A DNA stretch of 64,000 bases, taken from positions 11,975 to 75,974 of the forward strand of contig JABHLR010000005.1 of NCBI GenBank assembly GCA_018693315.1, in the 5' to 3' direction. The stretch comes from an archaeon (GTDB taxonomy: Archaea; Nanobdellota; Nanobdellia; Pacearchaeales; GW2011-AR1). Under the pieces are notes generated by a model that had not been told where the DNA came from, made no database searches, and saw nothing but the letters and a program-made list of their open reading frames with translations. Position 1 is the first letter of the stretch, and each line of letters begins with the position of its first letter. Shown here piece by piece: positions 601-28,644 of this stretch. Position numbers and translations under genes: made by a program.

Positions 601-609
601 TTTTATATA
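601..609 (+). promoter_or_regulatory. TATA-like box TTTTATATA, 22 nt upstream of the ATG at 631
   Basis: Archaeal TATA-like element at the spacing seen before most genes in this window. Implies a short-leader or leaderless mRNA. Confidence 0.45.
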
Positions 610-630: not shown

Positions 631-2436
631 ATGAAGAAGAGTGGTATGTCTGCGATTGTTGCTGTAGTTTTGATTGTCTTGGTTACTGTTGTTGCGGTTG
701 GGGTTATTTGGGGTATGGTTATTCCTATGATTCAACAGGATTCAGGATTGGATACTTATGATGCTGATGTTATCATTAAGACGGATGGTGGATATACTTA
801 TTTTGATGAAGAAAAGGGTGTTGCTTGCGTGCAAGTTAAGAGGATTGGCGAAGGTAGGGGTTTGAGAAGGATTGATGTTTTGTTTAGTTATGATGGGGCG
901 ACGCTTGATGATAATGGGAATTTTTCAGGGGAAGAGTTGCCTGACGTTAACGGGATGAAGCAGAAGTGTTTTGATTTGACTAATATTATTGTTCAGGGTG
1001 CTGATGGAAAATATATTGCTCCGGATTCTATAACAATTGTGCCGATTTATTTTGATGGATCAAAGGAGATTGAGGGTACTGTCTCGAAGATTGACAGAGG
1101 TAGGGGGCTTACTTCAGGGAAATTTCTTGATTATGGGAGCGCTGAATCTGTTGGGGGATGTGAAGATGATAGCGGATGTTCGGCGGGGGTTTGCTACAAT
1201 GAGGCGTGTTATTCGGATATTATTGTTGGTGGTAAGGTAGATAATTGTTGGCAGTTGCAGAATATTAATTTGGGTTTGACTGAGGATTATATTTTAATGA
1301 AGGATCTTAATTGCTCAATGACTTCTACCTGGAACGGTGGCGATGGGTTTGACCCGATTGGAAATGATCCAAATGTATTTGCTGGGACTTTTGATGGACA
1401 AGGTTTTACGATAAGTGATTTGTATATCGATAGGCCTTCGGAGAATTATGTTGGGTTGTTTGGTTATGTTAGTGGTGGTGAAATAAAAAATGTTGGATTA
1501 GTTGATGTGATTATTCTTGGGGCTAACGATGTTGGCGGATTAGTTGGAGACAGTCATCAGTCTTTAATAGATAACTCTTATGTTACTGGAGCTGTAACTG
1601 GATCAAATAGTCGTGTAGGTGGATTGGTGGGTTATAGTCGTACAGCCTCTTTGGTAAATAACTCTTATGCGGCTGTAGAGGTAAGCGGGACGAGGGGTTT
1701 TACTGGCGGATTAGTAGGATATAATTATTATTCATCGGTAGATAATTCTTATGCAACTGGAACTGTGTTGGGAAGAGTTGCGCGTACAGGTGGATTGGTG
1801 GGCTATAGTCGTGAAGCGGCAATAGATAATTCTTATGCAACTGGAACTGTAGTTGGTGAAGCATATGTGGGGGGATTGGCCGGAGGTAATCAGAGGTCAT
1901 CAATAAATAATTCTTATGCTAGTGGGAATGTGCGAGGAGTTGATTACATTATAGGAGGATTAGTAGGTTATAATTCTCAATCGACAATAAATAACTCCTA
2001 TGCAATCGGAAATGTAGTTGGTGCAAAATCTACGGGCGGATTATCTGGAAATAATCATCAGGCCGCAATAATTAATTCTTATGCTATTGGAGATGTAAGC
2101 GGAACGGAATATGTAGGTGGGCTTGTGGGTAGTGCTGATTTTTATCCACCAATAAATAATTCTTATGCAACAGGGGCTGTGTCTGGAAGTCGCTATGTTG
2201 GGGGATTGGTAGGGGGCAGTAGTAGTGGTTCCACTCTTATAATCAGTGATTCTTATTGGAATAATCATTATTATAATCCTTCTGTTGGTTGTGGGAATTC
2301 TTGTGACGCTGTTATAATGGCTATTAGTGACGATGAAGGTTGGTTTTATGTTGAGGCTAATGCCCCTATGAATGCATGGAGCAGTTCGGCCTGGACCTGG
2401 TCTGGAACGGGTTATCCAAAACTTATTTGGGAATGA
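631..2436 (+). CDS. Pilin-like (class III signal peptide) surface protein with tandem GLUG-motif repeats
   Basis: N-terminus MKKSGMSAIVAVVLIVLVTVVAVGVIWG is a short basic stretch plus hydrophobic segment typical of archaeal type IV pilin-like signals. The C-terminal half carries about 10 tandem repeats of roughly 40 aa (NSYATGxVxGxxxVGGLVGY) that resemble the GLUG motif. Confidence 0.7.
   Translation: MKKSGMSAIVAVVLIVLVTVVAVGVIWGMVIPMIQQDSGLDTYDADVIIKTDGGYTYFDEEKGVACVQVKRIGEGRGLRRIDVLFSYDGATLDDNGNFSGEELPDVNGMKQKCFDLTNIIVQGADGKYIAPDSITIVPIYFDGSKEIEGTVSKIDRGRGLTSGKFLDYGSAESVGGCEDDSGCSAGVCYNEACYSDIIVGGKVDNCWQLQNINLGLTEDYILMKDLNCSMTSTWNGGDGFDPIGNDPNVFAGTFDGQGFTISDLYIDRPSENYVGLFGYVSGGEIKNVGLVDVIILGANDVGGLVGDSHQSLIDNSYVTGAVTGSNSRVGGLVGYSRTASLVNNSYAAVEVSGTRGFTGGLVGYNYYSSVDNSYATGTVLGRVARTGGLVGYSREAAIDNSYATGTVVGEAYVGGLAGGNQRSSINNSYASGNVRGVDYIIGGLVGYNSQSTINNSYAIGNVVGAKSTGGLSGNNHQAAIINSYAIGDVSGTEYVGGLVGSADFYPPINNSYATGAVSGSRYVGGLVGGSSSGSTLIISDSYWNNHYYNPSVGCGNSCDAVIMAISDDEGWFYVEANAPMNAWSSSAWTWSGTGYPKLIWE
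1450..2262 (+). repeat. In-frame tandem coding repeats (about 117-120 nt unit, about 10 copies) encoding the GLUG-like NSYAxG...GGLVGY motif
   Basis: Periodic recurrence of aattcttatgc(a/t)actgg and ggtggattggtgggtta strings across the region. Confidence 0.7.
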
Positions 2437-5708: not shown

Positions 5709-6023
5709 TGTTACCACTTAGAGATTACAGTAATAGAAAGTTTTTTAAATTGGATTTTGCTTGTGATTTTAACAATAAACAACCAAAGATAACTACGATC
5801 GACAACTCATCCTCTGGATGGCGACACACAACAAATTGTTATCAAAAATGAACTCAAAATGACTTCATTCGTACCCGAAATATCTCGTGATATTTTGTAG
5901 GTGAATGGAATACCTGTCATTAGGCGTTGATGCCTTATAATTGAGATTCATAGTTTTTCTATATAGTGTTAACCGGATTAGATGGTTTTGGTTCGGAATA
6001 CCTTCTTTTGAAAGGAGATTGGT

Positions 6024-6473: not shown

Positions 6474-6528
6474 TTCTCGCTTTGTAATGCGAGATTCGAG
6501 TAAGAAACGTCTTTGAAAGGACAGAACG

Positions 6529-7200: not shown

Positions 7201-7228
7201 CGGAAGCCGCATGGGACGGATCCTCGTA

Positions 7229-7278
7229 AAAGGCTTTGTGTATAAGAGACGCTTTCTTATGCACAAGCCTTTTTTATT
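7229..7278 (+). terminator. Intrinsic-terminator-like hairpin followed by a T-tract
   Basis: aaaggctttgtgtataaga...tcttatgcacaagcctttttta forms a long imperfect stem and is followed by TTTTTTATTT. Confidence 0.5.
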
Positions 7279-7374
7279 TCTTAAAATGGTTACCAATGGT
7301 TACCAGTCTTTGGTGTGTGGTTTTTGGGGTGGTCGAGGGGCGCTCAAAATGTTTATAAAGTTGTGATATGTTGG

Positions 7375-8973: not shown

Positions 8974-8982
8974 TTTAAATAG
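8974..8982 (+). promoter_or_regulatory. TTTAAATAG box upstream of the giant surface-protein gene
   Basis: The same 9-mer recurs at 12544, 17085 and 18591, each time 21-29 nt before an ATG. Confidence 0.45.
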
Positions 8983-9002
8983 GTAATTGGGTTGTGTTGT
9001 TT

Positions 9003-12000: not shown

Positions 12001-12527
12001 GTACAATTATTAGGGTTGTTGTCAGTGATCGTGACGATGAGGTTAGTGGATCTTTAGCTGTTTCTGATGTTGAGGTTGCTACTTTTGGCAATGGTGGAGT
12101 TATTCAGGGCTATACATTTAGTGTTCCTGGTAATGTGCAGATTGTTGCTGATGCGAATAATACTCGAGGGAAGAGATCGCGGTCGGTTTCGAGTGTGATG
12201 GTTTTGGATAGGACTGTTGATGGTAAATATTCTGCGGCTTGTATTGATAGGCCTAGGAATTTTGAGGATTTTGAGGGGAATAGTATTCCGATTGATGCTT
12301 CGACGAGTCGGGCTGTTAGAGTTACTAATGGTGGGACTACAGCGACAGTGATTGTACCTGGAGATCCTGGTTTGAATTGGTATTGGACTTTTTCGAGGAG
12401 AGATGGTAATCATGAAATTAGGAATGTTTTAGGTGTTGCCGGAGAGAGTCTTCTTGCTTATAATTTTACTGCTGAGTTTCCTAGTTCTGGAAATAATTGG
12501 GCTACGTTGGGATTGGATTTGGATTAG
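9003..12527 (+). CDS. Giant secreted surface protein (about 1175 aa) with two LamG-like domains and a shared C-terminal module
   Basis: Signal peptide MRKFGVLALVLVFLFAFSFVAAGGGS. Two concanavalin/LamG-like segments (FSGNGFNG...LYVDGVL...EVAFYNRALT and LSGNFNNG...MYIDGEE...EVSVWSKALT). C-terminal 300 aa near-identical to ORF 4353-5708. Confidence 0.75.
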   Translation: MRKFGVLALVLVFLFAFSFVAAGGGSRDIIRNVGYENVRSVDGDVCTVDLYFDSCVWPDLVITNQWSSKTIDDIQTDPEGDDLGSCWGGQLVHQEGQYYPGTAARYYVRDLDVSCETAEDHVFYVKGTCSGGEYCWENETHSIDVNYEVPFIPRDVCGLSGMVGFWDFSGTSDTVVTDFSGNGFNGVMEDSSTRVAGKVGEALSFSGAGRVNLGNSALLNPVSELSIEFLMKTADDAADIGVMFSRHWSLDTGPNWAQRLSVVAGKLNFGYAGGVSLTGNADVANGVWHHVVLTHDGSSFKLYVDGVLDRSVPAPGNFISSTSNTYIGNSNYAGNYGIGHYNGLMDEVAFYNRALTTAEISGHYVSVSNGVNYCTPIEAESTCNAVNLDVYKVDRATYAVPPVGLSDDINYMTLDRSASDLTASDLANVDVLIIADTYLTGDPTHSCDSLNEWSCAANYVNIIGSFAELDVIKDAWEGGMDVILIGDNGGTPVGNSIANYWSATVTNYLTDTMYYTNYGIAYANAPLDPPTPDLAQFPFLEGVQFSLSWDGIWSPGLIYNVYSPAKCAARTVIDGSCIAAYLPRAAGRGYLFVSGNANVGSDIYTKNLIERSCQAECALPNLEGYWSFNDGSSTSVSDLSGNFNNGVVVGMGDDDLSSGVSGLALDFDGVEDYVEVANNDNLKLEKFTTAAWFKVNRLLQAGDESWVILMRGEEVQSGNLNYNTQLINSPTLFGEDSMKLACGFENTVDTNHWIIYDVHDASFVDRWIHVACTLDGNDWKMYIDGEEVSTDLRNGREAIASLGGTKPSLITSPFYVGGAFSSDGDEGGVDDVVSFFDGSIDEVSVWSKALTAVEVKNLYDKGTAGLGYCDVAPVSEIMWADMNGDEIVSADLGDTVQMIKTYAGSGSFDIFEEDDTVTDPFDDEIRNDIAGVGVGSNLIGKWTITQDDLRKTLGDYEEFRFIVDGETSEALSINPRRDDDRMVVGVENPACGTHFNQGDGTIIRVVVSDRDDEVSGSLAVSDVEVATFGNGGVIQGYTFSVPGNVQIVADANNTRGKRSRSVSSVMVLDRTVDGKYSAACIDRPRNFEDFEGNSIPIDASTSRAVRVTNGGTTATVIVPGDPGLNWYWTFSRRDGNHEIRNVLGVAGESLLAYNFTAEFPSSGNNWATLGLDLD
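11624..12527 (+). repeat. Duplicated 3' gene module, copy 2; partner copy is 4791-5708
   Basis: Near-identical nucleotide sequence, including the last roughly 430 nt at about 97% identity. Confidence 0.8.
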
Positions 12528-12543
12528 TTTCTTGGGGGAATGA

Positions 12544-12552
12544 TTTAAATAG
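12544..12552 (+). promoter_or_regulatory. TTTAAATAG box
   Basis: Conserved 9-mer 21 nt upstream of the ATG at 12573. Confidence 0.4.
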
Positions 12553-12572
12553 TGGTTTGTGTTATATTGTTT

Positions 12573-12845
12573 ATGAAAAAGTTGTTGATGCTTTGTTTTG
12601 CTCTTGTTTTTTTTGCTAGTTTTGTCGTCGCTGCGCCTTCAGAGGTTAGAGCGAATTTTATAATTAATGATGATGAAGTAGTTGCTAACGATGATGACCT
12701 TTCTCTTCTTGAGCCTAGCTTTTGGGATAGTTATGGTAATACGCTGATAGCGATTATAGTTTTGATAATTATTTATGTTTTGTTTAAGAGTTTTAGTAAG
12801 AAGACAAAAAAGAAAACTAAGGGCAAATCTCGTAAAAGAAAGTGA
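12573..12845 (+). CDS. Small type I membrane protein (signal peptide, acidic ectodomain, TM helix, Lys-rich tail)
   Basis: MKKLLMLCFALVFFASFVVAAPSE signal, hydrophobic IAIIVLIIIYVLF segment, C-terminal KKTKKKTKGKSRKRK. Confidence 0.45.
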   Translation: MKKLLMLCFALVFFASFVVAAPSEVRANFIINDDEVVANDDDLSLLEPSFWDSYGNTLIAIIVLIIIYVLFKSFSKKTKKKTKGKSRKRK

Positions 12846-12883
12846 TTTGAAATGTTTATAAAGTATTGTTGCTAGGTTGTTAT

Positions 12884-15565
12884 ATGAAAAGATTGGTGAT
12901 GTTTTTCGTTTTGGCTTTAGCTTTGAGTTTCGTTTCTGCTTCTGTGAGTGTTCATAACATTACTGTCGATATCGCGTATTCTCCGTTTGAAAATTTGAGT
13001 GGTGAAATTAATTTGACTATTGAAGGGGAGGGATATGATGATTTGATAACTTCGAATGATAATGATAGTATTGGGATTGGAGATTTTTTGAATGCAAGCG
13101 GTGTTTTGTTCGGGTGTTCTCCTCCTGATTGTTCTAAGGATTATACTGCTTCTTCGGGTGGTATGGATAATAGTTTTGATATTGGTACTTCTGGTAAGAG
13201 TTATCTTGGTTTTGTTTTGAATGGAGATAATGTTGAGTTGACCAGTATGAATTTTAAGGTTGAGAGTAATTTTGAGGAGAGTTCGAAAGTGCCGCTGACT
13301 ATTGATTTTTTTGAGAGAGAGAATTGGAAGTATGAGGAGTTTTCAAATGATTTTTTGAATGAAAATTGGGGTTGTTATAATCCGGCGATTGAAGAGGTTG
13401 GGCCTGTAATAGGAAGTTTGCTTTATTGTGAGATGGTTTCTGTTCCTGACAGTGGGGTTTTGAAGGTTGGAGCTAAGGTTAGTGGGGTTGATGATAAGAA
13501 ATTGAATATGGAGGTTTGTCCTGAAGGTAGCACAGGTGGTTGTAGGGTATGTGATTATAATACCAGTGTCGATAGTGGATGTACAGTTTTTCCTGATGAG
13601 GGATATATATTTTCTGAGGGTGATTATCGGGTTTGTGTGAGTGCTGATACTACTACTAATTATAGGATATTTAGCGAGGATGGTGGAGAGAATTGCGGTT
13701 TTACGCATGAGTTGATGAACCCAGAGGATAGTGTGAATGATTATGCTATTTTTGCTCAAACTGTTAAGTACGATTCTTCTCTTGCTCTTGGTGCTGTTAG
13801 TTTTGATCAGGAGAGGTTTGTTGAGGCGGCTAACGATCTTCTTGAGAAAAGATATGGTAATGATTGTTCGGATGGTTGTATTTTGCCTATAGCTATTTCG
13901 GGGATTCCCCAAGATGTTAGAGTTTATGATGTTGCGCTGGAATTTGTTAAAGATAATCAGGTTGATTCTACAAATCAGGTTTATGATTTAAGTACAGTTC
14001 CGGTTCTTGTCGATTATAGCGGAGTTGTTGATTTGGGGGCTTTGGGTTTTTCTGTTTCTAAAACCATGGAGTATATTGTTTCTTTGTCTGATGTCCAGCT
14101 GCTTAAGAAAAAAATTAATATTTTACCCGCTCCGATTATTTTGAATGTTTTTCCTTTGGACCCGCCCGCAGGTGTTCCTGTTAATTTTTATGTTAATGTC
14201 GATTTTGATGCGAATAAATCTTTGACTTATGATTGGGATTTTGGTGACGGCACTAAGGACGAAACCGGTGTTCCTTATGCTCTTCATTCTTATGGGAGTT
14301 TGGGAAATTATACAATGACGGTTGAGGTTAGCGCTGGTGGAAATCTGACTTCTGAAAAAAGTTTTAATGTTGTTACGGTTAGTCCGGAGTTTGCTGTTAA
14401 TTCAACTCTTATTTCTAAGAGAAAGGCTTTGAAGGATTTCGTTAAGGATGTTTCTGAATTTCCATCTTGGTATAGTGAGGCTTTGTCTAAGCTTGCTGAT
14501 GTTGATTTTTTTGATGGTGAATTAGATAGGTTAGATAGGGCAAGGAATAATTCTTTTAGCGAGTCTGATTTTATTAAGGTTGCCGAGGAGCTTTATGATT
14601 TGAATGTTCCTAAGGGGATTACCATAAATAGTTTTACTAGTCCTTATTTGATGACAGAACCGACTGATATTAATATTGAGCCAGTTGCTACAATTGGCGG
14701 TGGTTCGACTGGTGCGTCTAATAGCGTTTATCAAAATCCGATTTTGGTGTGGCAAGAACAAAATGTCGTTGCTGATTTTGAAACAAAAGGATTTTCTGTT
14801 GTTTCTTGGAAGGGTGAAATTAATGAGGTTTTTAGAATATATTCTATGAATGTTGAATCTAGTAGTTATGGTGAAAGTTATTTTGTGATTAATAAGCCGT
14901 TTAATGATTTGTATTTTAATGGAGAAGCTAGTGCTAGGAAGGCTGGTAATGCTACTGTGATTATTTTGAATGAAGGAGTGAAGCAATCGTTTGGGTTTTA
15001 TTATAAGACTGGAGAAGAGACCTCGTTTTTTGTTTCTCCAAAATTAAGTTCGGTTATTCTCGAGGGAAATATTGAAGATATTTGTGATTATGATTTTATT
15101 TGTGAGGAAGAGATGGGAGAAAATTCGGATACTTGTCGGAATGATTGTAAGCCTGTTTTTGGTGCGATTCTTTATGTTATTTTGTCCTTGATTTTTTTGT
15201 TGATAATTTATTCTGTTTTGCAGATTTGGTACAAGCATCGTTACGAGGGGCATTTATTTAGGGATAGGAGGCAGCTGTACAATCTTTTGATGTATGTTAC
15301 TAATGCGAGAGCTAGAGGAATGAGTGATGATAGGATTGCTGCTGAGCTTCGAAAGCAGGGTTGGTCAACAGAGAGAGTTAATTATATTATTAAGAAGTCG
15401 AGAGGTCAGAGAACTGGACTTTATGAGATTATTCCGTTTGAGAAAATTTCTGCCTTCTTTAGAAATCGAAAGGCGCAGAAGATTGAGGCGGCGAAGGTTG
15501 CTACTGGGGTTCGACAACAAGACAGGAGAAACATTAATAAATCTGGGTTGCAAAGAAAATTCTAG
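12884..15565 (+). CDS. Large (about 893 aa) membrane-anchored surface protein with a PKD domain
   Basis: Signal peptide MKRLVMFFVLALALSFVSASVSV. PKD signature YDWDFGDGTKDE...YTMTVEV. TM segment near the C-terminus (FGAILYVILSLIFLLIIYSVL) followed by a roughly 110 aa basic cytoplasmic tail. Confidence 0.7.
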   Translation: MKRLVMFFVLALALSFVSASVSVHNITVDIAYSPFENLSGEINLTIEGEGYDDLITSNDNDSIGIGDFLNASGVLFGCSPPDCSKDYTASSGGMDNSFDIGTSGKSYLGFVLNGDNVELTSMNFKVESNFEESSKVPLTIDFFERENWKYEEFSNDFLNENWGCYNPAIEEVGPVIGSLLYCEMVSVPDSGVLKVGAKVSGVDDKKLNMEVCPEGSTGGCRVCDYNTSVDSGCTVFPDEGYIFSEGDYRVCVSADTTTNYRIFSEDGGENCGFTHELMNPEDSVNDYAIFAQTVKYDSSLALGAVSFDQERFVEAANDLLEKRYGNDCSDGCILPIAISGIPQDVRVYDVALEFVKDNQVDSTNQVYDLSTVPVLVDYSGVVDLGALGFSVSKTMEYIVSLSDVQLLKKKINILPAPIILNVFPLDPPAGVPVNFYVNVDFDANKSLTYDWDFGDGTKDETGVPYALHSYGSLGNYTMTVEVSAGGNLTSEKSFNVVTVSPEFAVNSTLISKRKALKDFVKDVSEFPSWYSEALSKLADVDFFDGELDRLDRARNNSFSESDFIKVAEELYDLNVPKGITINSFTSPYLMTEPTDINIEPVATIGGGSTGASNSVYQNPILVWQEQNVVADFETKGFSVVSWKGEINEVFRIYSMNVESSSYGESYFVINKPFNDLYFNGEASARKAGNATVIILNEGVKQSFGFYYKTGEETSFFVSPKLSSVILEGNIEDICDYDFICEEEMGENSDTCRNDCKPVFGAILYVILSLIFLLIIYSVLQIWYKHRYEGHLFRDRRQLYNLLMYVTNARARGMSDDRIAAELRKQGWSTERVNYIIKKSRGQRTGLYEIIPFEKISAFFRNRKAQKIEAAKVATGVRQQDRRNINKSGLQRKF

Positions 15566-15566
15566 G

Positions 15567-16205
15567 ATGATTAAGATAATTAAAAACTTCGCTAGAAGAA
15601 TTTTTTCCAGCGTCTTTAAGAAAAAAGGAGAAATAAAGTTGGGATTCTATGGTTCGCCTAATGCTGGGAAGACTAGTTTGGCTAATCGAATTTGTCAAGA
15701 TTGGTTGGGCGAGGATTTGGGTAGTGTGAGTAAGATGCCGCATGAGACAAGAGAGATTCAGGTTAAGGAAAAAGTTGCGATTGAGAAGGATGGGAAGAAG
15801 CTCGAGTTTAAGTTGATTGATACTCCAGGGATTGCGACTAAGATTGATTTTGAAGATTTTATGAAGTTTGGTTTGAAGAAGAAGGCTGCGCAGGGTCGGG
15901 CTAAGGAAGCGACTCAGGGAATTATTGAATCGATTAAGTGGCTGGATGATATGGACGCTGTTGTTGTTTTGATTGATGCGACTATTAATCCTTATAGTCA
16001 GGTTAATATTACTATTATTGGGAATTTGGTTGCTAGGAAGATTCCGGTTTTGATTGTTGCGAATAAGATTGATTTGAAGAAGGCTGATATTAAGAAAGTG
16101 CAGGGGGCTTTCCCCGAGTATGAGGTTGTTGGGATCTCTGCGAAGAACGGGGATAATATCGAGGAGTTTTATGAAGAGCTATTTAAATTGGTTAAGAAAG
16201 TTTAA
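15567..16205 (+). CDS. Small P-loop GTPase (Era/EngB-like)
   Basis: G1 GSPNAGKTS, G3 DTPG, G4 NKID. The ATG at 15567 follows the upstream TAG stop by one nucleotide. The track's 5' extension overlaps the upstream gene and is rejected. Confidence 0.7.
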   Translation: MIKIIKNFARRIFSSVFKKKGEIKLGFYGSPNAGKTSLANRICQDWLGEDLGSVSKMPHETREIQVKEKVAIEKDGKKLEFKLIDTPGIATKIDFEDFMKFGLKKKAAQGRAKEATQGIIESIKWLDDMDAVVVLIDATINPYSQVNITIIGNLVARKIPVLIVANKIDLKKADIKKVQGAFPEYEVVGISAKNGDNIEEFYEELFKLVKKV

Positions 16206-16232
16206 ATAATACTAAAACAAAGTAATAACAAT

Positions 16233-16676
16233 ATGGTGAAGAAAAAAGTGGTGAAAAAAGTTTCTAAGAAGAAGAAGGTTTCTAGGAAATCTGTGGCGAA
16301 GGATTTGACGATTCATTTTATGCCGTATTCTGAGATTGCGCATGAGGATGCGATTGGTAGGATTAAGAAAATTATGGGGATTGTTTTGAAGGGAAAGATT
16401 ATTATTTTGCAGGGGAAGTTGAGGCCTGATGAAGAGGCGAGGTTGATTGAGAATTCTATGACGCTGATTGGGAATATCGAAGGATTTCAAGGGGTTGAGA
16501 TTGCTGGGCTTTCTGGAGAGAATGAGAACCGTGGTTTGTTTGAGAAAGTGAGGCATAATATTGCGAGAATTTTGGTGGGAGAGCAGGATGCGATCACGAT
16601 TATTGGGCCAGCTTCTGTTGTTAAGGATATTACGAAGGATCCGAAGAAGATTGAGTTGATGCTTCAGCGTAGATAG
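16233..16676 (+). CDS. Conserved archaeal hypothetical protein (DUF2073-like), Lys-rich N-terminus
   Basis: 147 aa. Recalled resemblance to an archaeal family usually found next to a small GTPase and a Zn-ribbon protein; the family assignment is from memory, not a search. Confidence 0.5.
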   Translation: MVKKKVVKKVSKKKKVSRKSVAKDLTIHFMPYSEIAHEDAIGRIKKIMGIVLKGKIIILQGKLRPDEEARLIENSMTLIGNIEGFQGVEIAGLSGENENRGLFEKVRHNIARILVGEQDAITIIGPASVVKDITKDPKKIELMLQRR

Positions 16677-16710
16677 ATAAGTTTATTAATTTCTTAGTTC
16701 TGTTTATTGT

Positions 16711-17079
16711 ATGCCACATCAATGCGTACATTGTAGTAAAATAATTGAAGTTGGGAGTAAGGAAATTCTCGAGGGTTGTAATAGTTGTGGCGGTAAGTTT
16801 TTTTTCTATATTCGTGATGAGCAGGCGGCTAAAATAAAGGAGTCGAAGGAGGAAGTTATTCCGGAGTTTAATACTGTCGATAAGGTGAAAGTTGAGGAGG
16901 ACGTTCGTAGTATTTTGAAGGTTGAGGATGATGAGAAGCCTGTGATTTTGGATTTGGAGAGCGTGAAGGTTTTAGGTCCTGGAAAGTTTGAGTTGGATAT
17001 TGTGAGTTTGATGAACAGGAAGCCGATTGTGTTTAAGGTTAGCGAAGGGAAATATATTATTGATATTGAGGGGATGTGA
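16711..17079 (+). CDS. Zn-ribbon protein (CxxC...CxxC), DUF2072/COG3364-like
   Basis: N-terminal HQCVHCSKII...CNSCGGKFF four-Cys ribbon. 122 aa. Confidence 0.5.
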   Translation: MPHQCVHCSKIIEVGSKEILEGCNSCGGKFFFYIRDEQAAKIKESKEEVIPEFNTVDKVKVEEDVRSILKVEDDEKPVILDLESVKVLGPGKFELDIVSLMNRKPIVFKVSEGKYIIDIEGM

Positions 17080-17084
17080 TTAAT

Positions 17085-17093
17085 TTTAAATAG
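17085..17093 (+). promoter_or_regulatory. TTTAAATAG box
   Basis: tttaaatagtatttttgctagtatttgttATG. A near-identical 35 nt promoter plus start context recurs before the paralog at 18620. Confidence 0.45.
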
Positions 17094-17113
17094 TATTTTT
17101 GCTAGTATTTGTT

Positions 17114-18589
17114 ATGAAAAAGAGAGTATGGAGTTCTTGCGAAAACCATTCACGTATTTTTCGCGGGGCTCAAAAAAGTGGGATGTCTGCGATTGTTGCG
17201 ACGGTGTTGGTTGTCTTGATTGTTGTTGTTACTGTCGGAGTTGTGTGGGGCCTTGTTCTTCCTGTGGTTCAAGATGGGGTGGAAACTGAAATTTCTGATG
17301 TTAGAATTTCTATTGATACTGGTGGAGGTTACACTTTTTTTAATGAAAGTACCGGTGAAGCTTGTGTCCAGGTGAGGAGGTCTAGTGATAACACAAATTT
17401 AGTCAGAATTGATGTTATATTTTCTTTCGGTGGCGATACGTTTGTTGGTAATTTTACTGGTGCTGAGATCCCAGGTGCGAATGAAGCTAATACAGAATGT
17501 TTTGATCTGAGTGATTTTACTAATGAAGACGGGAGCCAAAGATTTCCAGATTCAGTAGAGCTTTCTCCCATTTTTCTTGATGGTGGCAGAGAGGTTGTTG
17601 GAAGCAGAACGCCTAAGGTTGTTAAAATAAAAAATGGAACTAGTGTTGGTGTTGATTCTGATCCACAGAGGATTGATGATGGAGAAGATGACGAGGTTGA
17701 TAACTGTAGGACTTTAGATGTTGCAGGAGGAGAATATAGGTTAGTAAAAGATATTATTAGTGATTCTACTTGTTTTATAATAGTCGCAGAGGGCATTAGC
17801 TTGGATTTAAATGGATTTAATATAACTGGTGAGGGCGATGGGTATGGTGTTTCTGTTGAGGCAGATGGTGCAACTGTTAAGAATGGCGAGATTTATAGTT
17901 TTAATAATGGCATTTATTTGAATGGGGTTAGTGGAAATAATTTGATGAACATTAATGTTGAATCTAGTTATGGAAGTGGTATATACCTTGTCTCAAGTTC
18001 TAATAATAATCTCACAGCTATAGTTTCGAATTCGAATGGGGCGGATGGAATATCTTTTTCTGGAAGTTCCGGGAATATTCTTAGAGATAGTACTACGAAT
18101 TCGAATGGGGCGAGGTTGAGTGGCGGTGGCGGGGTGATGATTTTTGGGGGTTCGAATAATATCTTGATGGATTTAATCTCTGTTTATAATCAGGGTTCAT
18201 CGTCAGATGGAATTTATATAATGAGGAGTCATTCTAATGTGTTGTTGGATATTAACGCAAGTTATAATGGACAGGTGCCAGGGGGTTTCCCTAGAGATAA
18301 TAAAGCAGATGGTGTTCAAATTAAAGAAGGCAATTCTAACAATCTCACTAGGGTTATCGCTATGTTTAATGGCCACCATGGGCTTTATTTTGAAGGTAAG
18401 AACGATGAGTCCCTGATAGTTTCCAGTTTGGTTGCTGATAGCACTTTTTGTGATAATAATGATGATATAGTGGATGTTAAATGTAAGGATTACCATATTT
18501 ATCAAAATCATGGTTTTGGCAATAAGTATGATTCTTTTAGGAGTTCCTGCGGAGAGCTTTTTGGAACTGATGCAGTTCCTTGTGATTAA
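17114..18589 (+). CDS. Pilin-like (class III signal peptide) protein fused to a parallel beta-helix (pectin-lyase-like) domain
   Basis: N-terminus ...QKSGMSAIVATVLVVLIVVVTVGVVWGLVLP. Repetitive NNxxTxIxSNSNGADGISFSG / NSNGARLSGGGG beta-helix-like repeats. Confidence 0.7.
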   Translation: MKKRVWSSCENHSRIFRGAQKSGMSAIVATVLVVLIVVVTVGVVWGLVLPVVQDGVETEISDVRISIDTGGGYTFFNESTGEACVQVRRSSDNTNLVRIDVIFSFGGDTFVGNFTGAEIPGANEANTECFDLSDFTNEDGSQRFPDSVELSPIFLDGGREVVGSRTPKVVKIKNGTSVGVDSDPQRIDDGEDDEVDNCRTLDVAGGEYRLVKDIISDSTCFIIVAEGISLDLNGFNITGEGDGYGVSVEADGATVKNGEIYSFNNGIYLNGVSGNNLMNINVESSYGSGIYLVSSSNNNLTAIVSNSNGADGISFSGSSGNILRDSTTNSNGARLSGGGGVMIFGGSNNILMDLISVYNQGSSSDGIYIMRSHSNVLLDINASYNGQVPGGFPRDNKADGVQIKEGNSNNLTRVIAMFNGHHGLYFEGKNDESLIVSSLVADSTFCDNNDDIVDVKCKDYHIYQNHGFGNKYDSFRSSCGELFGTDAVPCD

Positions 18590-18590
18590 A

Positions 18591-18599
18591 TTTAAATAG
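18591..18599 (+). promoter_or_regulatory. TTTAAATAG box
   Basis: tttaaatagtatttttgttagtatttattATG. Confidence 0.45.
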
Positions 18600-18619
18600 T
18601 ATTTTTGTTAGTATTTATT

Positions 18620-20476
18620 ATGAAAAAGAAAGGTGTTTCTGCGATTGTCGCGACTGTGTTGGTTGTTTTGATTGCTGTTGTCGGTATTGGATTGATTTGG
18701 GGTGTTGTTTTGCCGGTGATTGATGAAGGGTTTTCGGCTCAAGAGTATGATATAGATTTGGTTATTGATGACAGTGCCGGTTATACTTATTATGATGCCG
18801 ATAATAAGGTTGCATGTGTGCAGATTAAAAGAGGGGCTGATGAGTTTAATTTGTCGCGTATTGATGTGTTTTTTTATTTTAATGGAACTTCTTATGGTTC
18901 TAATTTTACTGGAAGCGATGTTCCTGGCCCAAATGAAATCAGAAAGAAATGTTTTAATCTTGAGGACTATGGGGCTCCGAATTCTATAGAAATAGCGTCG
19001 GTGATTTGGGATGATGGAAAAGAAATTATTGGGAAGGTTAGCTCGGCTGTCGCGAGAGTTAAACTTGGTAGTTATCCTGGGACTCCAACTGATATTGCTA
19101 AGTTGGATAAGCCGAAGAAGCAGAATAATAATGGGCCCGCTCCTGTCGTGTGCGTTGGTGGTTGTGATGATGGGAATGATTGTACTGTAGATGTTTGTAC
19201 TGATGGCAGTTGTTCTAATGATGATGTCGCGGATGGTACGGTTTGTACTGATGGTGGTTCTTGTTTGTCTGGGACATGTATTCTTCCTGATTGGATTGAG
19301 ATATCAGATTGTTCTTCTGTTGTGTTGAATGAAGAAGGTGCAACTTATATTCTTGTTAAGGATATTGATAGTACCGGTACGTGTTTACTTGTTGGCGCTG
19401 ATGGGATTACCGTTGATCTTAATGGGTTTGAGATTAGGGGTGAGGCCGAGTGGGATAGTTATGGTGTTATTATAGATGGTCAGGATAATACTATTGTGAG
19501 AAATGGAGGAATTTATAATTATGATACCGGTGTTTTTCTTGACTGGGGGTCAGAATCGAATACAGTAGATAATATGGTAATAAGTGATAATTTAGACCTT
19601 GGGGTGCACATTCTTGAAAGCACCAATAACAATATTATAAACAATATTATAGACGATGTTTGGGGCGGTTTTGGTTATGGAGTGTATGTTGAGGGAGCTT
19701 CTTCGGGATATAATAATATTATAAACAACACAATAGAAGATGTTTCTGCTGTGGGTGTGTCTATTGAATCTTCTGGCAATAAGGTAATAAATAATACTAT
19801 CATATCGTGTTCTGTTGGAATTAGGTCTTTCGGCGGGAGTAGTCTCGAGATTTTTAATAACAAGTTGCAGGATAATGGTGGGCGTGGAATTGATTTTTGG
19901 GGCGATAGTGATGGAAGTATTATCGGTAATTATATTCATTCGAATGGCCTTGGGATTGATTCTTCTACATCAGGTAATGTCTATATTGAAGATAATATAT
20001 TGAACGCTAATGGTCAGGGTGGTTTTTACATTTCTACTTTTAGTCCTAATACTTATGTTATTAAGAATAATTCTATTGTTGGCGATGGTTTTAATACCGG
20101 AATAAGTGTATCTTCTTCTATGGATGAGGCAACTATATCTATTGAGGATAACGTTGTTAATTCTAGTAGTGTTGGTATTTTTGTAGAACAAGGGCGTGGC
20201 TTTAGTGTTTATAATAATATTCTGGAGTCTAATGATGTTGGTTTGAAATTAGCTGGTTGGTCTTCTGGGGGTAATCATGATATTTCAGGTAATCATGTTT
20301 GTGGCAATGATGAGGATTTTGTTTGTGATAGGCATTTTTTGGGAGGTTTTTATTATAATATAGCAGATGTCTATGGAAGTGGAAATACTTTTGGTGGCGA
20401 TAGCGGAGATGTTGTTGCGTGTCCGGTAAATAGTTGGCCAGATTATGATAATGGAGATTATGGTTATTGTTCTTAA
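18620..20476 (+). CDS. Pilin-like (class III signal peptide) protein fused to a parallel beta-helix domain; tandem paralog of 17114-18589
   Basis: N-terminus MKKKGVSAIVATVLVVLIAVVGIGLIWGVVLP. Cys/Asp-rich linker, then NNIINNIIDD...NNIINNTIEDV...NKVINNTI beta-helix repeats. Confidence 0.7.
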   Translation: MKKKGVSAIVATVLVVLIAVVGIGLIWGVVLPVIDEGFSAQEYDIDLVIDDSAGYTYYDADNKVACVQIKRGADEFNLSRIDVFFYFNGTSYGSNFTGSDVPGPNEIRKKCFNLEDYGAPNSIEIASVIWDDGKEIIGKVSSAVARVKLGSYPGTPTDIAKLDKPKKQNNNGPAPVVCVGGCDDGNDCTVDVCTDGSCSNDDVADGTVCTDGGSCLSGTCILPDWIEISDCSSVVLNEEGATYILVKDIDSTGTCLLVGADGITVDLNGFEIRGEAEWDSYGVIIDGQDNTIVRNGGIYNYDTGVFLDWGSESNTVDNMVISDNLDLGVHILESTNNNIINNIIDDVWGGFGYGVYVEGASSGYNNIINNTIEDVSAVGVSIESSGNKVINNTIISCSVGIRSFGGSSLEIFNNKLQDNGGRGIDFWGDSDGSIIGNYIHSNGLGIDSSTSGNVYIEDNILNANGQGGFYISTFSPNTYVIKNNSIVGDGFNTGISVSSSMDEATISIEDNVVNSSSVGIFVEQGRGFSVYNNILESNDVGLKLAGWSSGGNHDISGNHVCGNDEDFVCDRHFLGGFYYNIADVYGSGNTFGGDSGDVVACPVNSWPDYDNGDYGYCS

Positions 20477-22817: not shown

Positions 22818-22906
22818 AAAAATCTTTTATAAATGTTTGGGTTATGTTGTCTTTCTCTAGGGGTTACAATAGGAAGTTTTATATAGAATTTTTTTGTGTC
22901 ATTCTT

Positions 22907-23413
22907 ATGAGATTGAAGTATACTCTGGTATTCTTGTTGGGATTTGTTAGTTGCGCGCTTTTGTTTAGCTTGTTTAGTTATTTTGGTGTGGCACTCGCCG
23001 GTGTACCCATTGAGATGGGCAAGGTTCCGTTTGGGACAGGGATGGTGAGTTATGGGGTTAGTGCGCCTTCTGACTGGGTTTCTGAGGATGATATTGTTGT
23101 TTTTGATGATATGGTTGTTTTGAGGATTGCGAATGCTACATTGTCTAATTATGCGAATAGTGGGAGTATGTTGCCGTTTTTGGATGAGGGTGCGAATGGT
23201 ATACGTGTTGTTCCGGAGAGTGTTGATGATGTGAATGTTGGAGATATTGTTAGTTATGTTTTTGATGGGATCATGATTGTGCATCGAGTTGTTGAGAAAG
23301 GTGTGGATGATGAAGGGGTTTATTTTGTGATGCAGGGAGATAATAATTTGGTGAGTGATGGGAAGGTTCGGTTTGAGGATGTTAGGTATGTTACTGTTGG
23401 GATTCTATATTAA
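22907..23413 (+). CDS. Signal peptidase I (archaeal Sec11/S26B type)
   Basis: Catalytic Ser box NSGSMLPFL, His box IVHRVV and QGDNN box. N-terminal TM segment. TATA ttttatatag 21 nt upstream. Confidence 0.7.
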   Translation: MRLKYTLVFLLGFVSCALLFSLFSYFGVALAGVPIEMGKVPFGTGMVSYGVSAPSDWVSEDDIVVFDDMVVLRIANATLSNYANSGSMLPFLDEGANGIRVVPESVDDVNVGDIVSYVFDGIMIVHRVVEKGVDDEGVYFVMQGDNNLVSDGKVRFEDVRYVTVGILY

Positions 23414-24361
23414 GAGTTTCCAGATTAGTAATCCTAAGAATATTCCGGTTGTGATGTATGGCATTGCTGGGTATGCTTTTCCTTTTTTGGTTATGAAGAA
23501 TAGGAATGATAATCCTGCGAGTGCTCCGAAGATTACGAAGAGTGCTGGGATGATTCCGAATGCTTGCATGAAAACTCCGGCTGTGATTATTGGGAAGATG
23601 ACATCTCCGCCGCCGAGGATTGCCAAGCTTACTTTGAATTTTTTCTTTTTAATTTTGGCTGGCATTTTTTTGCCTTTGTATTTTTGTTTTATCTTTGCGA
23701 TTTGAGCTTTGACTTTTTTGGATGCTGATGGGATTAGGAAACCGCCGAATATTTTTAGTTCTTCCATTTGGAACTTTGCCATTTTTTGCATGACGCCGGA
23801 TTTCCATACTGCCCATGCGTCGTAGATTGAGATTAGGATAAGTAATACTATGACTGTTTTCCAGGTTAGGATTGGGACGAAGACTGCTGCGATTCCGGGA
23901 TAGATTAGGAGTTCTGTTAGGTTGTGGGTGTAGGCGTTTGGGTGGAATATTTTTATGAATGCTAGTGGGATTGCGATTGCCATGGCGACGATTGCGATGT
24001 TCATTAATGGTGTGTATTTTAGGATTGCGTTAAATGAAATTCCGAGGGCTAGTGCGACGACGAGGAAGAACCAGAGCCTGATGACGATTCGCCATTTGTA
24101 TTTCATTAGGATGAAAATTAGTGCGAATGCTAGGGCGAATGCGAAAATGATTGATAGAAAATCTGGAGTTGGTTCGTCTTGTGGCGCTTGGAGTCCGAAT
24201 GGAAGTGATCCTTCGGTCATAAATAATTCTTGTTCGCCTGTTTCCGGGTTGATGATTGTTAGTGATTGTGGGGCATAGGCGTTGACGACGAAGAGGCCGA
24301 TGAATTGCGTGACTATGAACATTGAAAGTAAGAGTAGAGTTATTGTTAATCTGTGTTTCAC
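23405..24361 (-). CDS. Presenilin/signal-peptide-peptidase family intramembrane aspartyl protease homolog
   Basis: Polytopic, with ordered YD (SIYDAWAV), GxGD (LGGGDVIFP) and PAL-like (AYPAMPYI) motifs. Confidence 0.65.
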   Translation of the reverse strand: MKHRLTITLLLLSMFIVTQFIGLFVVNAYAPQSLTIINPETGEQELFMTEGSLPFGLQAPQDEPTPDFLSIIFAFALAFALIFILMKYKWRIVIRLWFFLVVALALGISFNAILKYTPLMNIAIVAMAIAIPLAFIKIFHPNAYTHNLTELLIYPGIAAVFVPILTWKTVIVLLILISIYDAWAVWKSGVMQKMAKFQMEELKIFGGFLIPSASKKVKAQIAKIKQKYKGKKMPAKIKKKKFKVSLAILGGGDVIFPIITAGVFMQAFGIIPALFVIFGALAGLSFLFFITKKGKAYPAMPYITTGIFLGLLIWKLLI

Positions 24362-28101: not shown

Positions 28102-28644
28102 ATGTATGGGAAAAGGGGACAGGGTATGTCGTTGACTACGATTATTTTGATTGTGCTTGGCTTGGCGGTTCTTGTTTTTTTAATATTTGGATTTTCTACA
28201 GGTTGGGGAAATTTGTGGGGAACTATAACTGAGCTTGGTGGTGGAGATGCTAATGTTGATGATATAAGTCGGGGTTGTGCTTTGGCTTGTCAGCAAGGGG
28301 CGTCTTATGGTTTTTGTGATCAGAAAAGGGATTTGATTATTTCTAAGGGTAAGGAGACTAGTGGGAGTTGTTTTGATTTTGCAAAGAAGAGACCTTCTTT
28401 GGGGATTGAAAATTGTAATAATTTATGTAGTGGGGATTCGGATGGTTGTGTTTCCAAGGAGAAGAAAGATGTGAATTGTGATGGGGTTGGGGAGGAGGGT
28501 TCTCCTACCAAAACAACTCCTTCTAGTTCTGTAGGAAGTGGGGCTATTGCAATTGATTTGTCTCAGGAATCTTTGGATATTTCTTATGTGGTGATTACTT
28601 CTGATGAGGATTCGTTTAGTGAAAGTGGGGAGGTTTTTGCATGA
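28102..28644 (+). CDS. Pilin-like (class III signal peptide) Cys-rich secreted protein
   Basis: MYGKRGQGMSLTTIILIVLGLAVLVFLIFG resembles archaeal prepilin signals. Eight or more Cys, Ser/Thr-rich linker. Stop overlaps the next start (ATGA). Confidence 0.55.
   Translation: MYGKRGQGMSLTTIILIVLGLAVLVFLIFGFSTGWGNLWGTITELGGGDANVDDISRGCALACQQGASYGFCDQKRDLIISKGKETSGSCFDFAKKRPSLGIENCNNLCSGDSDGCVSKEKKDVNCDGVGEEGSPTKTTPSSSVGSGAIAIDLSQESLDISYVVITSDEDSFSESGEVFA

What the first reader, a model, noticed from the sequence alone, without database searches (positions are those of the whole stretch)
17085..20476. Tandem paralogous pilin-fused beta-helix proteins with near-identical promoters and signal peptides
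Genes at 17114 and 18620 share the upstream string tttaaatagtattttt(g/t)(c/t)tagtattt(g/a)ttATGaaaaag and the KxGxSAIVATVLVVLI prepilin-like N-terminus. Both continue into right-handed parallel beta-helix repeats (NNxIxNN / SNSNGADG). With 631-2436 and 28102-28644, that makes four prepilin-like genes in the window but no prepilin peptidase or pilus ATPase nearby.
Basis: partly seen in the sequence, partly recalled or inferred. Interest (0 to 1): 0.55.

Follow-up and report, generated by a model that had tools for sequence, protein, structure and literature searches.

The report
Tandem archaeal pilins carrying beta-helix domains
Two neighbouring genes of a tiny uncultured archaeon (Pacearchaeota-like, DPANN) each fuse a type IV pilin "carrier" to a sugar-binding or sugar-cutting beta-helix domain, so the cell probably displays these domains on its pili to grip or digest a partner's surface; the pilus motor genes lie just outside the window.

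Summary
Genes A (17114-18589, 491 aa) and B (18620-20476, 618 aa) are tandem paralogs. They share a 52-nt repeat (92% identical) that holds an archaeal TATA box 29 nt before the ATG, and a class III (prepilin-type) N-terminus. Both end in right-handed beta-helices (Pfam; AlphaFold plus Foldseek for B).

The shared ~150-aa N-terminal module also occurs in gene C (631-2436, GLUG repeats). It belongs to a large family with no Pfam model: 1,901 cluster representatives, named members from Pacearchaeota/Nanoarchaeota. The model shows a long helix plus a beta-sandwich (pLDDT 91).

Stand-alone homologs lie directly upstream of a pilus ATPase in 24 of 31 related loci. Fused versions, some with beta-helices, sit inside those operons.

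On the window's own scaffold the ATPase and two platform genes lie about 7-9.3 kb before window base 1. So the genes are not orphans.

Best reading: modular minor pilins that display carbohydrate-active passengers. Relatives carry one or four such genes next to the same oap genes, with mosaic sequences.

No prepilin peptidase was found. The fourth "prepilin-like" gene (28102) is unrelated. This is a new variant of a known kind, of moderate interest.

The parts
17075..17126 (+). 52-nt direct repeat, copy 1. It spans the last bases and stop codon of oapC, the TATA box, the spacer and the first codons of gene A.
   Evidence: D3, 92% identical to 18581-18632
17085..17092 (+). TATA box TTTAAATA of gene A, starting 29 nt before the ATG. 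This geometry implies a leaderless mRNA.
   Evidence: The same -29 geometry occurs at many genes of the window. The inference of leaderless transcription rests on the known archaeal TATA-to-start distance of about 26 nt.
17114..18589 (+). Gene A, 491 aa: class III leader, pilin module, then a short beta-helix with a Cys-containing C-terminal cap.
   Evidence: Identical protein in NCBI MBT7102302.1, annotated 'hypothetical protein'.
17114..17182 (+). Leader peptide of A (23 aa, MKKRVWSSCENHSRIFRGAQKSG). The predicted prepilin-peptidase cut follows Gly23.
   Evidence: The same long leader occurs in P0003, and similar 15-20-aa leaders occur in other family members. Cleavage is inferred, not shown.
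17183..17623 (+). Mature pilin module of A: hydrophobic helix plus beta-sandwich, with two conserved Cys.
   Evidence: alignments A3/A5; family HMM E 1e-56
17759..18268 (+). Right-handed beta-helix repeats of A.
   Evidence: Pfam PF13229 E 7e-11 and PF05048 E 4e-07, aa 216-385
18581..18632 (+). 52-nt direct repeat, copy 2. It holds the last codons and stop of gene A, the TATA box and the first codons of gene B.
   Evidence: D3
18591..18598 (+). TATA box TTTAAATA of gene B, starting 29 nt before the ATG and 1 nt after the stop codon of A.
18620..20476 (+). Gene B, 618 aa: class III leader, pilin module, flexible linker, Cys-rich spacer, then a long beta-helix with a Cys cap.
   Evidence: Identical protein in NCBI MBT7102303.1, annotated 'right-handed parallel beta-helix repeat-containing protein'.
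18620..18634 (+). Leader peptide of B (MKKKG). The predicted cut follows Gly5.
   Evidence: weak TIGR02537 match, aa 3-30, E 0.008-0.04
18635..19069 (+). Mature pilin module of B: helix about aa 6-37, then an eight-strand beta-sandwich, aa 47-144.
   Evidence: AlphaFold model, pLDDT 91.2, and the same elements in the full-length model
19127..19210 (+). Low-confidence, probably flexible linker (aa 170-197).
   Evidence: pLDDT below 50 in the full-length model
19151..19312 (+). Cys-rich spacer (CVGGCDDGNDCTVDVCTDGSCS...GTC). Related family members hit the MopE-type motif.
   Evidence: 14 of 95 family members hit PF11617
19337..20329 (+). Right-handed parallel beta-helix of B (aa about 240-570).
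   Evidence: Pfam PF13229 E 4e-26 and PF05048 E 2e-22; model pLDDT 85-96. Foldseek hits are GH87 glucanase, capsule lyases and depolymerases, NosD and alginate epimerases.
20300..20473 (+). C-terminal Cys-containing cap, conserved in family members that carry beta-helices.
   Evidence: alignment A7, nearly invariant C561 and C569; C617 nearly invariant in A6; sequences
602..609 (+). TATA box TTTATATA of gene C, 29 nt before its ATG. This promoter is 26-27/36 identical to those of A and B.
631..2436 (+). Gene C, 601 aa: a third copy of the same pilin module (43% identical), fused to GLUG repeats instead of a beta-helix.
   Evidence: It lies about 6.4 kb downstream of the pilus locus on the same scaffold.

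Best explanation
A and B are modular type IV pilins of a Pacearchaeota-like DPANN archaeon. Each gene has its own TATA-box promoter placed for a leaderless mRNA.

Proposed steps:
1. The protein starts with a class III signal peptide and is inserted into the membrane.
2. A prepilin peptidase removes the short basic leader after the conserved Gly (inferred).
3. The exposed hydrophobic helix, with its small beta-sandwich, forms a pilin module that the type IV pilus machinery can take up. That machinery (ATPase plus split platform protein) is encoded about 24-26 kb away on the same scaffold.
4. A bulky passenger hangs on a flexible, Cys-rich linker, so the subunit most likely sits at the pilus tip or as a rare minor subunit (inferred by analogy with bacterial modular pilins).
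5. The passenger is a right-handed beta-helix of the carbohydrate-binding/depolymerase type. It would bind or cut a polysaccharide on a partner cell, host envelope or substrate (inferred).

The tandem pair arose by duplication of a 1.5-kb unit that begins about 10 nt upstream of the TATA box. Promoter and signal-peptide DNA stayed nearly identical while the passengers diverged. In relatives the same site holds one or four such genes with mosaic sequences. The array therefore behaves as a recombining set of alternative pilus-displayed surface modules.
For: Shown:
- Shared 52-nt promoter/start repeat and paralogy.
- The TATA box at -29 is the general pattern in this window.
- The N-terminal module is a large family: 1,901 representatives at E<=1e-3.
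- Members weakly but consistently match archaeal pilin N-terminal models: TIGR02537 in 32/38, UpsA in 20/38, PF07790 in 14/38. NCBI/JGI name some of them 'type IV pilin N-terminal domain' or 'flagellin-like'.
- The model is a helix plus beta-sandwich at pLDDT 91.
- Stand-alone homologs sit about 0.7 kb upstream of a T2SSE ATPase in 24 of 31 related loci with enough upstream DNA.
- Fused versions, including a 586-aa module+Cys-rich+beta-helix protein with B's architecture, lie inside such operons.
- The window's own scaffold carries T2SSE, two T2SSF, two small accessory genes and a HerA-like gene just upstream of the window.
- The beta-helix is supported by Pfam and by model plus Foldseek.
- Passenger domains are swapped across the family: Beta_helix 30, Laminin_G_3 17, MopE 14, Fibrinogen_C 6 and GLUG 2 of 95 members.
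- Copy number at the oap locus is 1, 2 or 4, with mosaic proteins.
Against: - No class III signal peptidase (Peptidase_A24) was found in the window, in the 9.3 kb upstream, or in about 0.9 Mb of related loci.
- A, B and C score below the curated cut-offs of PF07790 and TIGR02537.
- A and C have Ser rather than Lys/Arg at position -2 of the predicted cleavage site.
- Foldseek of the module returns only generic Ig/FN3 folds (E >= 3e-3) and no solved archaeal pilin in the top 50. Profile matches to solved archaeal pilins are not significant (E 0.2-0.9).
- A and B lie outside the pilus operon.
- Nothing here shows expression, cleavage, polymerisation or a ligand.
Confidence: 0.62

Rival explanations
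1. This is surface display without filament incorporation. The class III N-terminus is processed and the pilin module forms only a short stalk or a bindosome-like envelope assembly. The beta-helix enzymes or lectins are then held at the cell surface, as with the Sulfolobus sugar-binding proteins that carry class III signal peptides, rather than carried on long pili.
For: A, B and C are encoded outside the pilus operon, each with its own promoter. The passengers are large (about 300-450 aa). A few family members weakly match the bindosome BasA/BasC models. [quoted passage not shown] 2007, cited in PMC9563170; bindosome in the archaeal TFF preprint).
Against: The carrier is a full pilin fold, not just a signal peptide, and is homologous to the stand-alone pilin next to the ATPase. 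Fused versions sit inside pilus operons. The BasA/BasC matches are weak, N-terminal only, and seen in 4-6 of 38 members.
Confidence: 0.22
2. The N-terminus is an uncleaved signal anchor. A and B would then be ordinary type II membrane proteins, envelope-bound glycan-active enzymes with no functional link to pili.
For: No prepilin peptidase was found in the accessible DNA. The curated pilin models are not reached. A has an atypically long leader, and A and C lack Lys/Arg at -2.
Against: The Gly at -1, the Ser at +2 and the helix sequence are nearly invariant over hundreds of homologs. The family is physically linked to pilus ATPase and platform genes. The module has a conserved globular pilin-like domain, which a mere anchor would not need.
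Confidence: 0.1
3. The promoter and leader identity reflects a shared regulator site or recent gene conversion and has no bearing on function. On this view the pair is a decaying duplicate, with A a truncated, possibly non-functional copy.
For: A's beta-helix is shorter and scores much lower than B's (E 7e-11 versus 4e-26). A carries an 18-codon leader insertion. TAGTATTT occurs twice between the TATA box and the ATG in both copies.
Against: A is an intact ORF. The exact protein sequence of A was found on 18 assembled contigs from several sample sets. A's long leader recurs in a relative (P0003), and similar leaders occur in other members. A retains the conserved C-terminal Cys cap. The TAGTATTT pair is not enriched elsewhere in the window.
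Confidence: 0.06

Closest known systems
Bacterial modular type IV pilins (Streptococcus sanguinis PilB with a vWA module, PilC with a concanavalin-A-like lectin module; Raynaud et al. 2021, PMC8179133)
   Same: The architecture matches: class III signal peptide, small pilin module, short linker, bulky functional module. The same carrier is grafted to many different passengers; lectin/LamG-type passengers are also frequent here. The proposed role, display at the pilus tip for adhesion, also matches.
   Different: The carrier here is archaeal: a KRG|ISAIVAT-type leader and an Ig-like beta-sandwich, not the bacterial IPR012902 N-methylation motif and alpha/beta roll. That survey was made of bacteria, and a term search found no mention of archaea in the paper. 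Genes A and B sit outside the pilus operon in a tandem array. The passenger is a beta-helix.
Archaeal type IV pilus 'system 1' / Epd-type loci (ATPase plus a platform protein split into two genes, many minor pilins; Makarova et al. 2016, PMC4858521; bioRxiv 10.64898/2026.04.22.720090)
   Same: The machinery on the window's scaffold has one T2SSE ATPase followed by two T2SSF genes and small class-III-like accessory proteins. The preprint reports this layout for methanogens and DPANN, and notes SPIII proteins with sugar-binding domains and beta-helical proteins in TFF loci.
   Different: Assignment to system 1 rather than 4A was not tested phylogenetically. The carrier family found here has no Pfam model. 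I found no description of it in the papers searched.
[quoted passage not shown] 2007)
   Same: A functional extracellular domain sits behind a class III signal peptide and depends on a type IV pilus-like assembly system.
   Different: By my recollection, not tested here, those proteins have only the signal peptide and helix, not a conserved globular pilin domain shared with the major pilin.
Right-handed beta-helix carbohydrate-active proteins (NosD/CASH repeats, GH87 alpha-1,3-glucanase, capsule lyases, phage tailspike depolymerases, alginate C5-epimerases)
   Same: Pfam Beta_helix/NosD repeats are present. The best Foldseek matches to the B model are 7c7d, 7w1c, 9k4a, 7osf and 2pyg.
   Different: Identity is low (9-17%) and E-values are modest (5e-06 to 1e-02). 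There is no sequence match to any solved structure. The NosD subfamily model is far below cut-off (43.8 versus 300 bits). No catalytic residues were identified, so binding versus cleavage is open.

Membership tests
Archaeal type IV pilin / class III signal peptide protein | Short basic leader ending in Gly/Ala, followed by about 20 or more hydrophobic residues at the extreme N-terminus | tested here: met
   B reads MKKKG|VSAIVATVLVVLIAVVGIGLIWGVVLPVI. A has the same after a 23-aa leader, and C reads MKKSG|MSAIVAVVL. G-1, S+2, A, L and W are nearly invariant in 95 homologs.
Archaeal type IV pilin / class III signal peptide protein | Score above the curated threshold of PF07790 (Pilin_N) or TIGR02537 (arch_flag_Nterm) | tested here: not met
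   PF07790 gives 14.7-19.4 bits against a cut-off of 25.2. TIGR02537 gives 12.1-15.7 bits against 20. At family level, 32/38 members match TIGR02537 and 14/38 match PF07790 at E<=0.1.
Archaeal type IV pilin / class III signal peptide protein | Fold: long N-terminal alpha-helix followed by a beta-sandwich globular domain | tested here: met
   AlphaFold2 with a 38-sequence alignment gave pLDDT 91.2, helix 6-36 and eight strands 47-144. The full-length model reproduces this.
Archaeal type IV pilin / class III signal peptide protein | Specific structural or sequence similarity to a solved archaeal pilin or archaellin | tested here: inconclusive
   The Foldseek top 50 are generic Ig/FN3 domains, best E 2.9e-03. 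The profile against PDB sequences gives 8fk7, 3j1r and 8gi2 only at E 0.2-0.9, over the N-terminal helix.
Archaeal type IV pilin / class III signal peptide protein | Genomic association with a T2SSE/FlaI-type ATPase and a T2SSF/FlaJ-type platform protein | tested here: met
   Family level: 24 of 31 loci with at least 3.5 kb upstream carry a stand-alone module pilin, and 26 carry T2SSE. Same scaffold as the window: T2SSE plus two T2SSF about 7-9.3 kb before window base 1.
Archaeal type IV pilin / class III signal peptide protein | Cleavage by a dedicated prepilin peptidase (PibD/FlaK/EppA, Peptidase_A24) encoded in the genome | not testable with these tools
None was found in the window, in L009, or in about 0.9 Mb of related loci by motif plus transmembrane scan. 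The only GxGD-type protease seen is a presenilin/SPP homolog at 23405-24361.
Modular type IV pilins (sense of Raynaud et al. 2021) | [quoted passage not shown] | tested here: met
   In B the module is aa 1-150, the low-confidence linker aa 170-197, and the beta-helix aa 240-570. The same module is fused to other Pfam domains in relatives, mainly Beta_helix/NosD, Laminin_G_3, MopE, Fibrinogen_C and GLUG.
Modular type IV pilins (sense of Raynaud et al. 2021) | Bacterial-type pilin signature (IPR012902 N-methylation motif, Glu5) | tested here: not met
   The sequence after the predicted cut is VSAIVAT/MSAIVAT, with no Phe1 or Glu5. The organism is archaeal.
Right-handed parallel beta-helix (pectin-lyase-like fold) | Pfam PF13229/PF05048 above the gathering score, and a beta-helical model matching solved beta-helix proteins | tested here: met
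   A: 42.4 and 30.3 bits. B: 92 and 80.2 bits. The B model has pLDDT 85-96 over aa 240-570. All top Foldseek hits are beta-helix CAZymes, NosD or tailspikes. A was not modelled.
NosD (nitrous-oxide reductase maturation protein) | TIGR04247 score of at least 300 bits, and a nosDFY/nosZ context | tested here: not met
   B scores 43.8 bits. There are no nos genes in the window.

The most novel reading that the evidence does not exclude
Pacearchaeota-type DPANN archaea may possess a dedicated, so far undescribed 'carrier pilin' family. Its module would serve as a universal adaptor that mounts interchangeable host-interaction domains (beta-helix depolymerases or lectins, LamG, fibrinogen-like, GLUG) on type IV pili. 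On this reading, the tandem arrays next to the oap genes (one, two or four copies, with mosaic leader, module and passenger segments) are a recombination-driven variation system. That system would tune which partner-cell glycans the episymbiont can grip or breach.
Probability: 0.3. Interest if true: 0.72.

Novelty: new variant of a known kind. Interest (0 to 1): 0.5.

Why it matters
All cultivated DPANN archaea live attached to other cells, yet how they attach is largely unknown. One genome survey found no annotated pilins in its DPANN genomes and suggested that pilin genes are small and poorly conserved (PMC9563170).

This locus gives a concrete, searchable pilin family: a profile that finds about 1,900 cluster representatives. 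The family is tied to pilus ATPase loci and serves as a carrier for a menu of glycan-binding or glycan-cutting domains. That gives candidate host-recognition molecules that can be tested directly by expression, glycan arrays and immunolabelling in enrichment cultures.

It would also extend the 'modular pilin' principle, described so far for bacteria, to archaea. Finally, it would improve annotation, since NCBI currently labels A and C 'hypothetical protein' and B only as a beta-helix protein.

Tried and rejected
- A word-indexed homolog search with B residues 1-165 found nothing. The exhaustive profile search was needed.
- Pfam and NCBIfam do not recognise the module above threshold.
- Foldseek of the module against PDB gave only generic Ig/FN3 hits. 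The profile against PDB sequences gave no significant pilin match. B's C-terminal half has no sequence relative among solved structures.
With the three-paralog alignment it returned one Pacearchaeota locus and not the window's genome, so the genome is not a GTDB species representative.
- The search for a prepilin peptidase failed. A motif plus transmembrane scan of 0.9 Mb of fetched DNA found nothing. The two multi-TM proteins of the window without a clear role are a presenilin/SPP homolog and a 7-TM protein without a GxGD motif.
- A possible regulator site (TAGTATTT repeated 12 nt apart) is not enriched beyond A and B, so I make no claim about it.
- Gene 28102-28644 was rejected as a family member (no hits).
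It was rerun without that row.
- Bacterial promoter and terminator scans were not run, because the organism is archaeal.


Full report
**What is in the sequence.** The interval holds two same-strand ORFs: A (ATG 17114, stop 18589, 491 aa) and B (ATG 18620, stop 20476, 618 aa). The repeat finder reports a 52-nt direct repeat at 17075-17126 / 18581-18632, 92% identical with 1506-nt spacing. It also reports a 107-nt repeat over the signal-peptide coding DNA at 74%.

Anchored on the ATG, positions -36..-1 are identical at 33/36, and identity falls to 5/24 further upstream. Inside the genes, nucleotide identity is 80-84% over the hydrophobic helix and 45-60% thereafter.

The repeat begins with TGTGATTAA. 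In both copies this string contains the stop codon of the preceding ORF, but in different frames: TGA of oapC and TAA of gene A. That fits tandem duplication of a 1.5-kb unit starting about 10 nt upstream of the TATA box; this last point is inference.

Relative to B, A has an 18-codon insertion after codon 4, giving a 23-aa leader.

**The promoter.** The organism is an archaeon. The window encodes RtcB, OapA/B/C, an archaeal CCA-adding enzyme, TrmB, aCPSF1/FttA, a proteasome subunit, aIF2-beta, FtsZ and GatD/E.

Its aCPSF1 is 81-86% identical to proteins named Candidatus Pacearchaeota or Nanoarchaeota archaeon.

TTTAAATA starts 29 nt before both ATGs. The same geometry recurs at many genes of the window. 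Given the known archaeal TATA-to-start distance, this indicates leaderless mRNAs, which is inference.

The generic pattern explains only part of the similarity. Among 23 such promoters the mean pairwise identity is 17.3/36 (sd 3.4). A-B at 33 is the highest of 253 pairs, and A-C (27) and B-C (26) are also near the top.

The TATA position also argues that A's long leader is translated.

**The N-terminal part is a whole pilin module.** A, B and gene C (631-2436, GLUG repeats) share about 150 residues at 43% identity. This region comprises a basic leader ending in Gly, a hydrophobic helix of about 30 residues, and a conserved domain with two Cys. In the window only these three ORFs match the family HMM.

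An exhaustive profile search found 1,901 cluster representatives at E<=1e-3 and 726 at E<=1e-10. The consensus N-terminus is M-x-K-R-G-I-S-A-I-V-A-T-V-L-I-I-L-I-T-V.

Named members come from Pacearchaeota, Nanoarchaeota or unclassified 'archaeon' MAGs. Some are called 'flagellin-like protein' or 'archaellin/type IV pilin N-terminal domain-containing protein'.

A, B and C score below the curated cut-offs of PF07790 and TIGR02537. However, 32 of 38 family members match TIGR02537, 20 match the UpsA pilin model and 14 match PF07790 at E<=0.1.

AlphaFold2 on B residues 1-165 gave pLDDT 91.2, with helix 6-36 followed by an eight-strand beta-sandwich.

Foldseek found only generic Ig/FN3 folds. A profile search of PDB sequences touched archaeal pilins only at E 0.2-0.9. 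The fold class therefore fits, but no specific structural relative was shown.

**Link to pilus machinery.** Many homologs are stand-alone proteins of 150-185 aa. Two of them (P0207, P0192) sit in a row of small class-III-type genes directly upstream of a T2SSE ATPase and two T2SSF genes. In one of these operons (L002/L003) the last pilus gene is a 586-aa protein with B's architecture: module, Gly/Cys-rich spacer, beta-helix.

Looking up gene C on public assemblies returned the window's own scaffold, ENA ERZ23491529 scaffold_21 (220,825 bp). It is 99.96% identical over the 12.4 kb that overlap the window.

Its upstream 9.3 kb reads as follows:
- the end of a T2SSE ATPase;
- a 55-aa gene;
- two T2SSF genes (confirmed by my own scan, E 5e-15 and 6e-16);
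- two small membrane proteins;
- a HerA/DUF87 ATPase;
- housekeeping genes, then archease and gene C.

The machinery is thus about 7-9.3 kb beyond window base 1 and about 24-26 kb from A/B.

A metagenome scan with the first T2SSF gave 80 orthologous loci. Of the 31 with at least 3.5 kb upstream, 26 show the ATPase and 24 show a stand-alone module-family pilin (E<1e-20). Eleven of the 80 carry a fused version with a tail of 116-474 aa.

**The passengers.** Both proteins hit Pfam Beta_helix and NosD above threshold, B much more strongly than A. The NosD subfamily model is far below its cut-off.

The full-length model of B (pLDDT 83) has these elements:
- the pilin module;
- a low-confidence linker (aa 170-197);
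- a Cys-rich spacer;
- a beta-helix over aa about 240-570 at pLDDT 85-96.

Its Foldseek matches are all beta-helix proteins. They include GH87 alpha-1,3-glucanase, Klebsiella capsule lyase, phage depolymerases and tailspikes, NosD, and alginate epimerases and lyases (E 5e-06 to 1e-02, identity 9-17%). The pectin-lyase-like fold is therefore confirmed for B. Whether it binds or cleaves glycans is open.

Among 95 family members the passengers differ: Beta_helix/NosD in 30, Laminin_G_3 in 17, MopE-type motif in 14, Fibrinogen_C in 6 and GLUG in 2, plus several rarer domains. The module thus acts as a carrier for swappable domains.

**The array varies.** Public copies of the window's population keep the order oapA-oapB-oapC-A-B-CCA enzyme.

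In another sample (JGI 3300072015), one contig has a single 761-aa gene, P0003. It has A's long leader, a B-like module and spacer (66% identity), an A-like end of the helix, and a C-like GLUG tail.

A 132.8-kb contig of the same sample has four tandem module+beta-helix genes (482, 852, 799 and 706 aa) between oapB and oapC. By eye, the first two have nearly identical beta-sandwich sequences but different leaders and helices (sequences; overall identity 42%).

Segments are thus exchanged among copies. In the window the conserved segment is the promoter plus leader/helix DNA.

**Mechanism and rivals.** The best-supported reading (0.62) is that A and B are modular minor pilins. After leader removal their pilin module is taken up by the nearby pilus system, and the beta-helix is presented on a flexible linker, most likely at the tip. 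This parallels bacterial modular pilins (PMC8179133).

- Shown: the architecture, the family, and the genomic linkage.
- Inferred: cleavage, incorporation, tip location, and the glycan ligand.

The main rival (0.22) is bindosome-like envelope display without long filaments. An uncleaved anchor (0.10) is disfavoured by the near-invariant cleavage-site residues and the conserved globular module. It cannot be excluded, because no Peptidase_A24 gene was found in the accessible DNA.

**Comparison with the literature.** Archaeal TFF loci with one ATPase and a split platform are reported for methanogens and DPANN. The same preprint notes adhesin-like and beta-helical proteins in such loci (bioRxiv 10.64898/2026.04.22.720090). 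The 2016 survey of archaeal pili does not mention DPANN.

One DPANN genome study reports that no pilins were annotated in its genomes (PMC9563170). The modular-pilin survey was made of bacteria and does not mention archaea.

NCBI annotates A and C as hypothetical and B as a beta-helix protein.

**Verdict.** This is a real and coherent feature. It is an archaeal variant of modular pilins, built on a large carrier family that has no Pfam model and that I did not find described in the papers searched. It is arranged in a variable tandem array. It is not categorically new.

Noticed in passing
window 1-64000: There is extreme strand asymmetry. The + strand is 26.9% G and 12.5% C. Third-codon-position GC skew is +0.68 in + strand genes and -0.58 (on their own coding strand) in - strand genes, and AT skew mirrors this. 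The + strand is therefore G+T-rich regardless of gene orientation. Cumulative skew rises without a turn across the window.
   Followed up: partly
window 23405-24361 (-) and 22844-23413 (+): A presenilin/signal-peptide-peptidase-type GxGD intramembrane protease (PF06550 E 2e-18; NF041679 below cut-off) lies convergent with an archaeal signal peptidase I. It is not a Peptidase_A24 prepilin peptidase, but it is the only GxGD-type protease seen near the pilin genes.
   Followed up: partly
window 4791-5617 and 11625-12528: These two stretches are 85% identical at the DNA level over about 830-925 nt. They are the C-terminal parts of a 451-aa secreted protein and of the 1174-aa Laminin_G_3 protein, which suggests recent domain copying between surface-protein genes.
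   Followed up: no
window 4347-15565: A run of large secreted proteins with ordinary (non-pilin) signal peptides lies between gene C and the oap genes: two Laminin_G_3 proteins (530 and 1174 aa) and an 893-aa PKD protein. LamG is also a frequent passenger on the pilin carrier in relatives.
   Followed up: no
It shows no similarity to the pilin module or to any pilus-locus protein, and has no Pfam or NCBIfam hit. It heads a small operon with a 525-aa secreted protein and a 192-aa protein that has a C-terminal anchor.
   Followed up: partly
window 55379-56512: This ORF matches the catalytic core of eukaryotic-type DNA topoisomerase IB (PF01028, E 7e-13). An HNH endonuclease gene lies nearby at 52648-53427.
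   Followed up: no
window 15324-17079; JGI 3300072015 contigs: The modular-pilin array always sits beside the origin-associated oapA/B/C genes, but at slightly different points: after oapC in the window, and between oapB and oapC in a relative. No Orc1/Cdc6 gene or skew turn is visible in the window.
   Followed up: partly
L002 10564-11091 (and the equivalent gene in other pilus loci): The ~175-aa gene between the module-family pilin and the ATPase starts MRKVVRKKGQVWIETVIY. After the Gly, a Glu falls at position +5, which resembles the bacterial type IV pilin signature.
   Followed up: no
window 49722-50393: This 223-aa protein has seven predicted transmembrane segments and no hit in Pfam or NCBIfam. 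It was checked as a possible prepilin peptidase, but it lacks a GxGD motif.
   Followed up: yes
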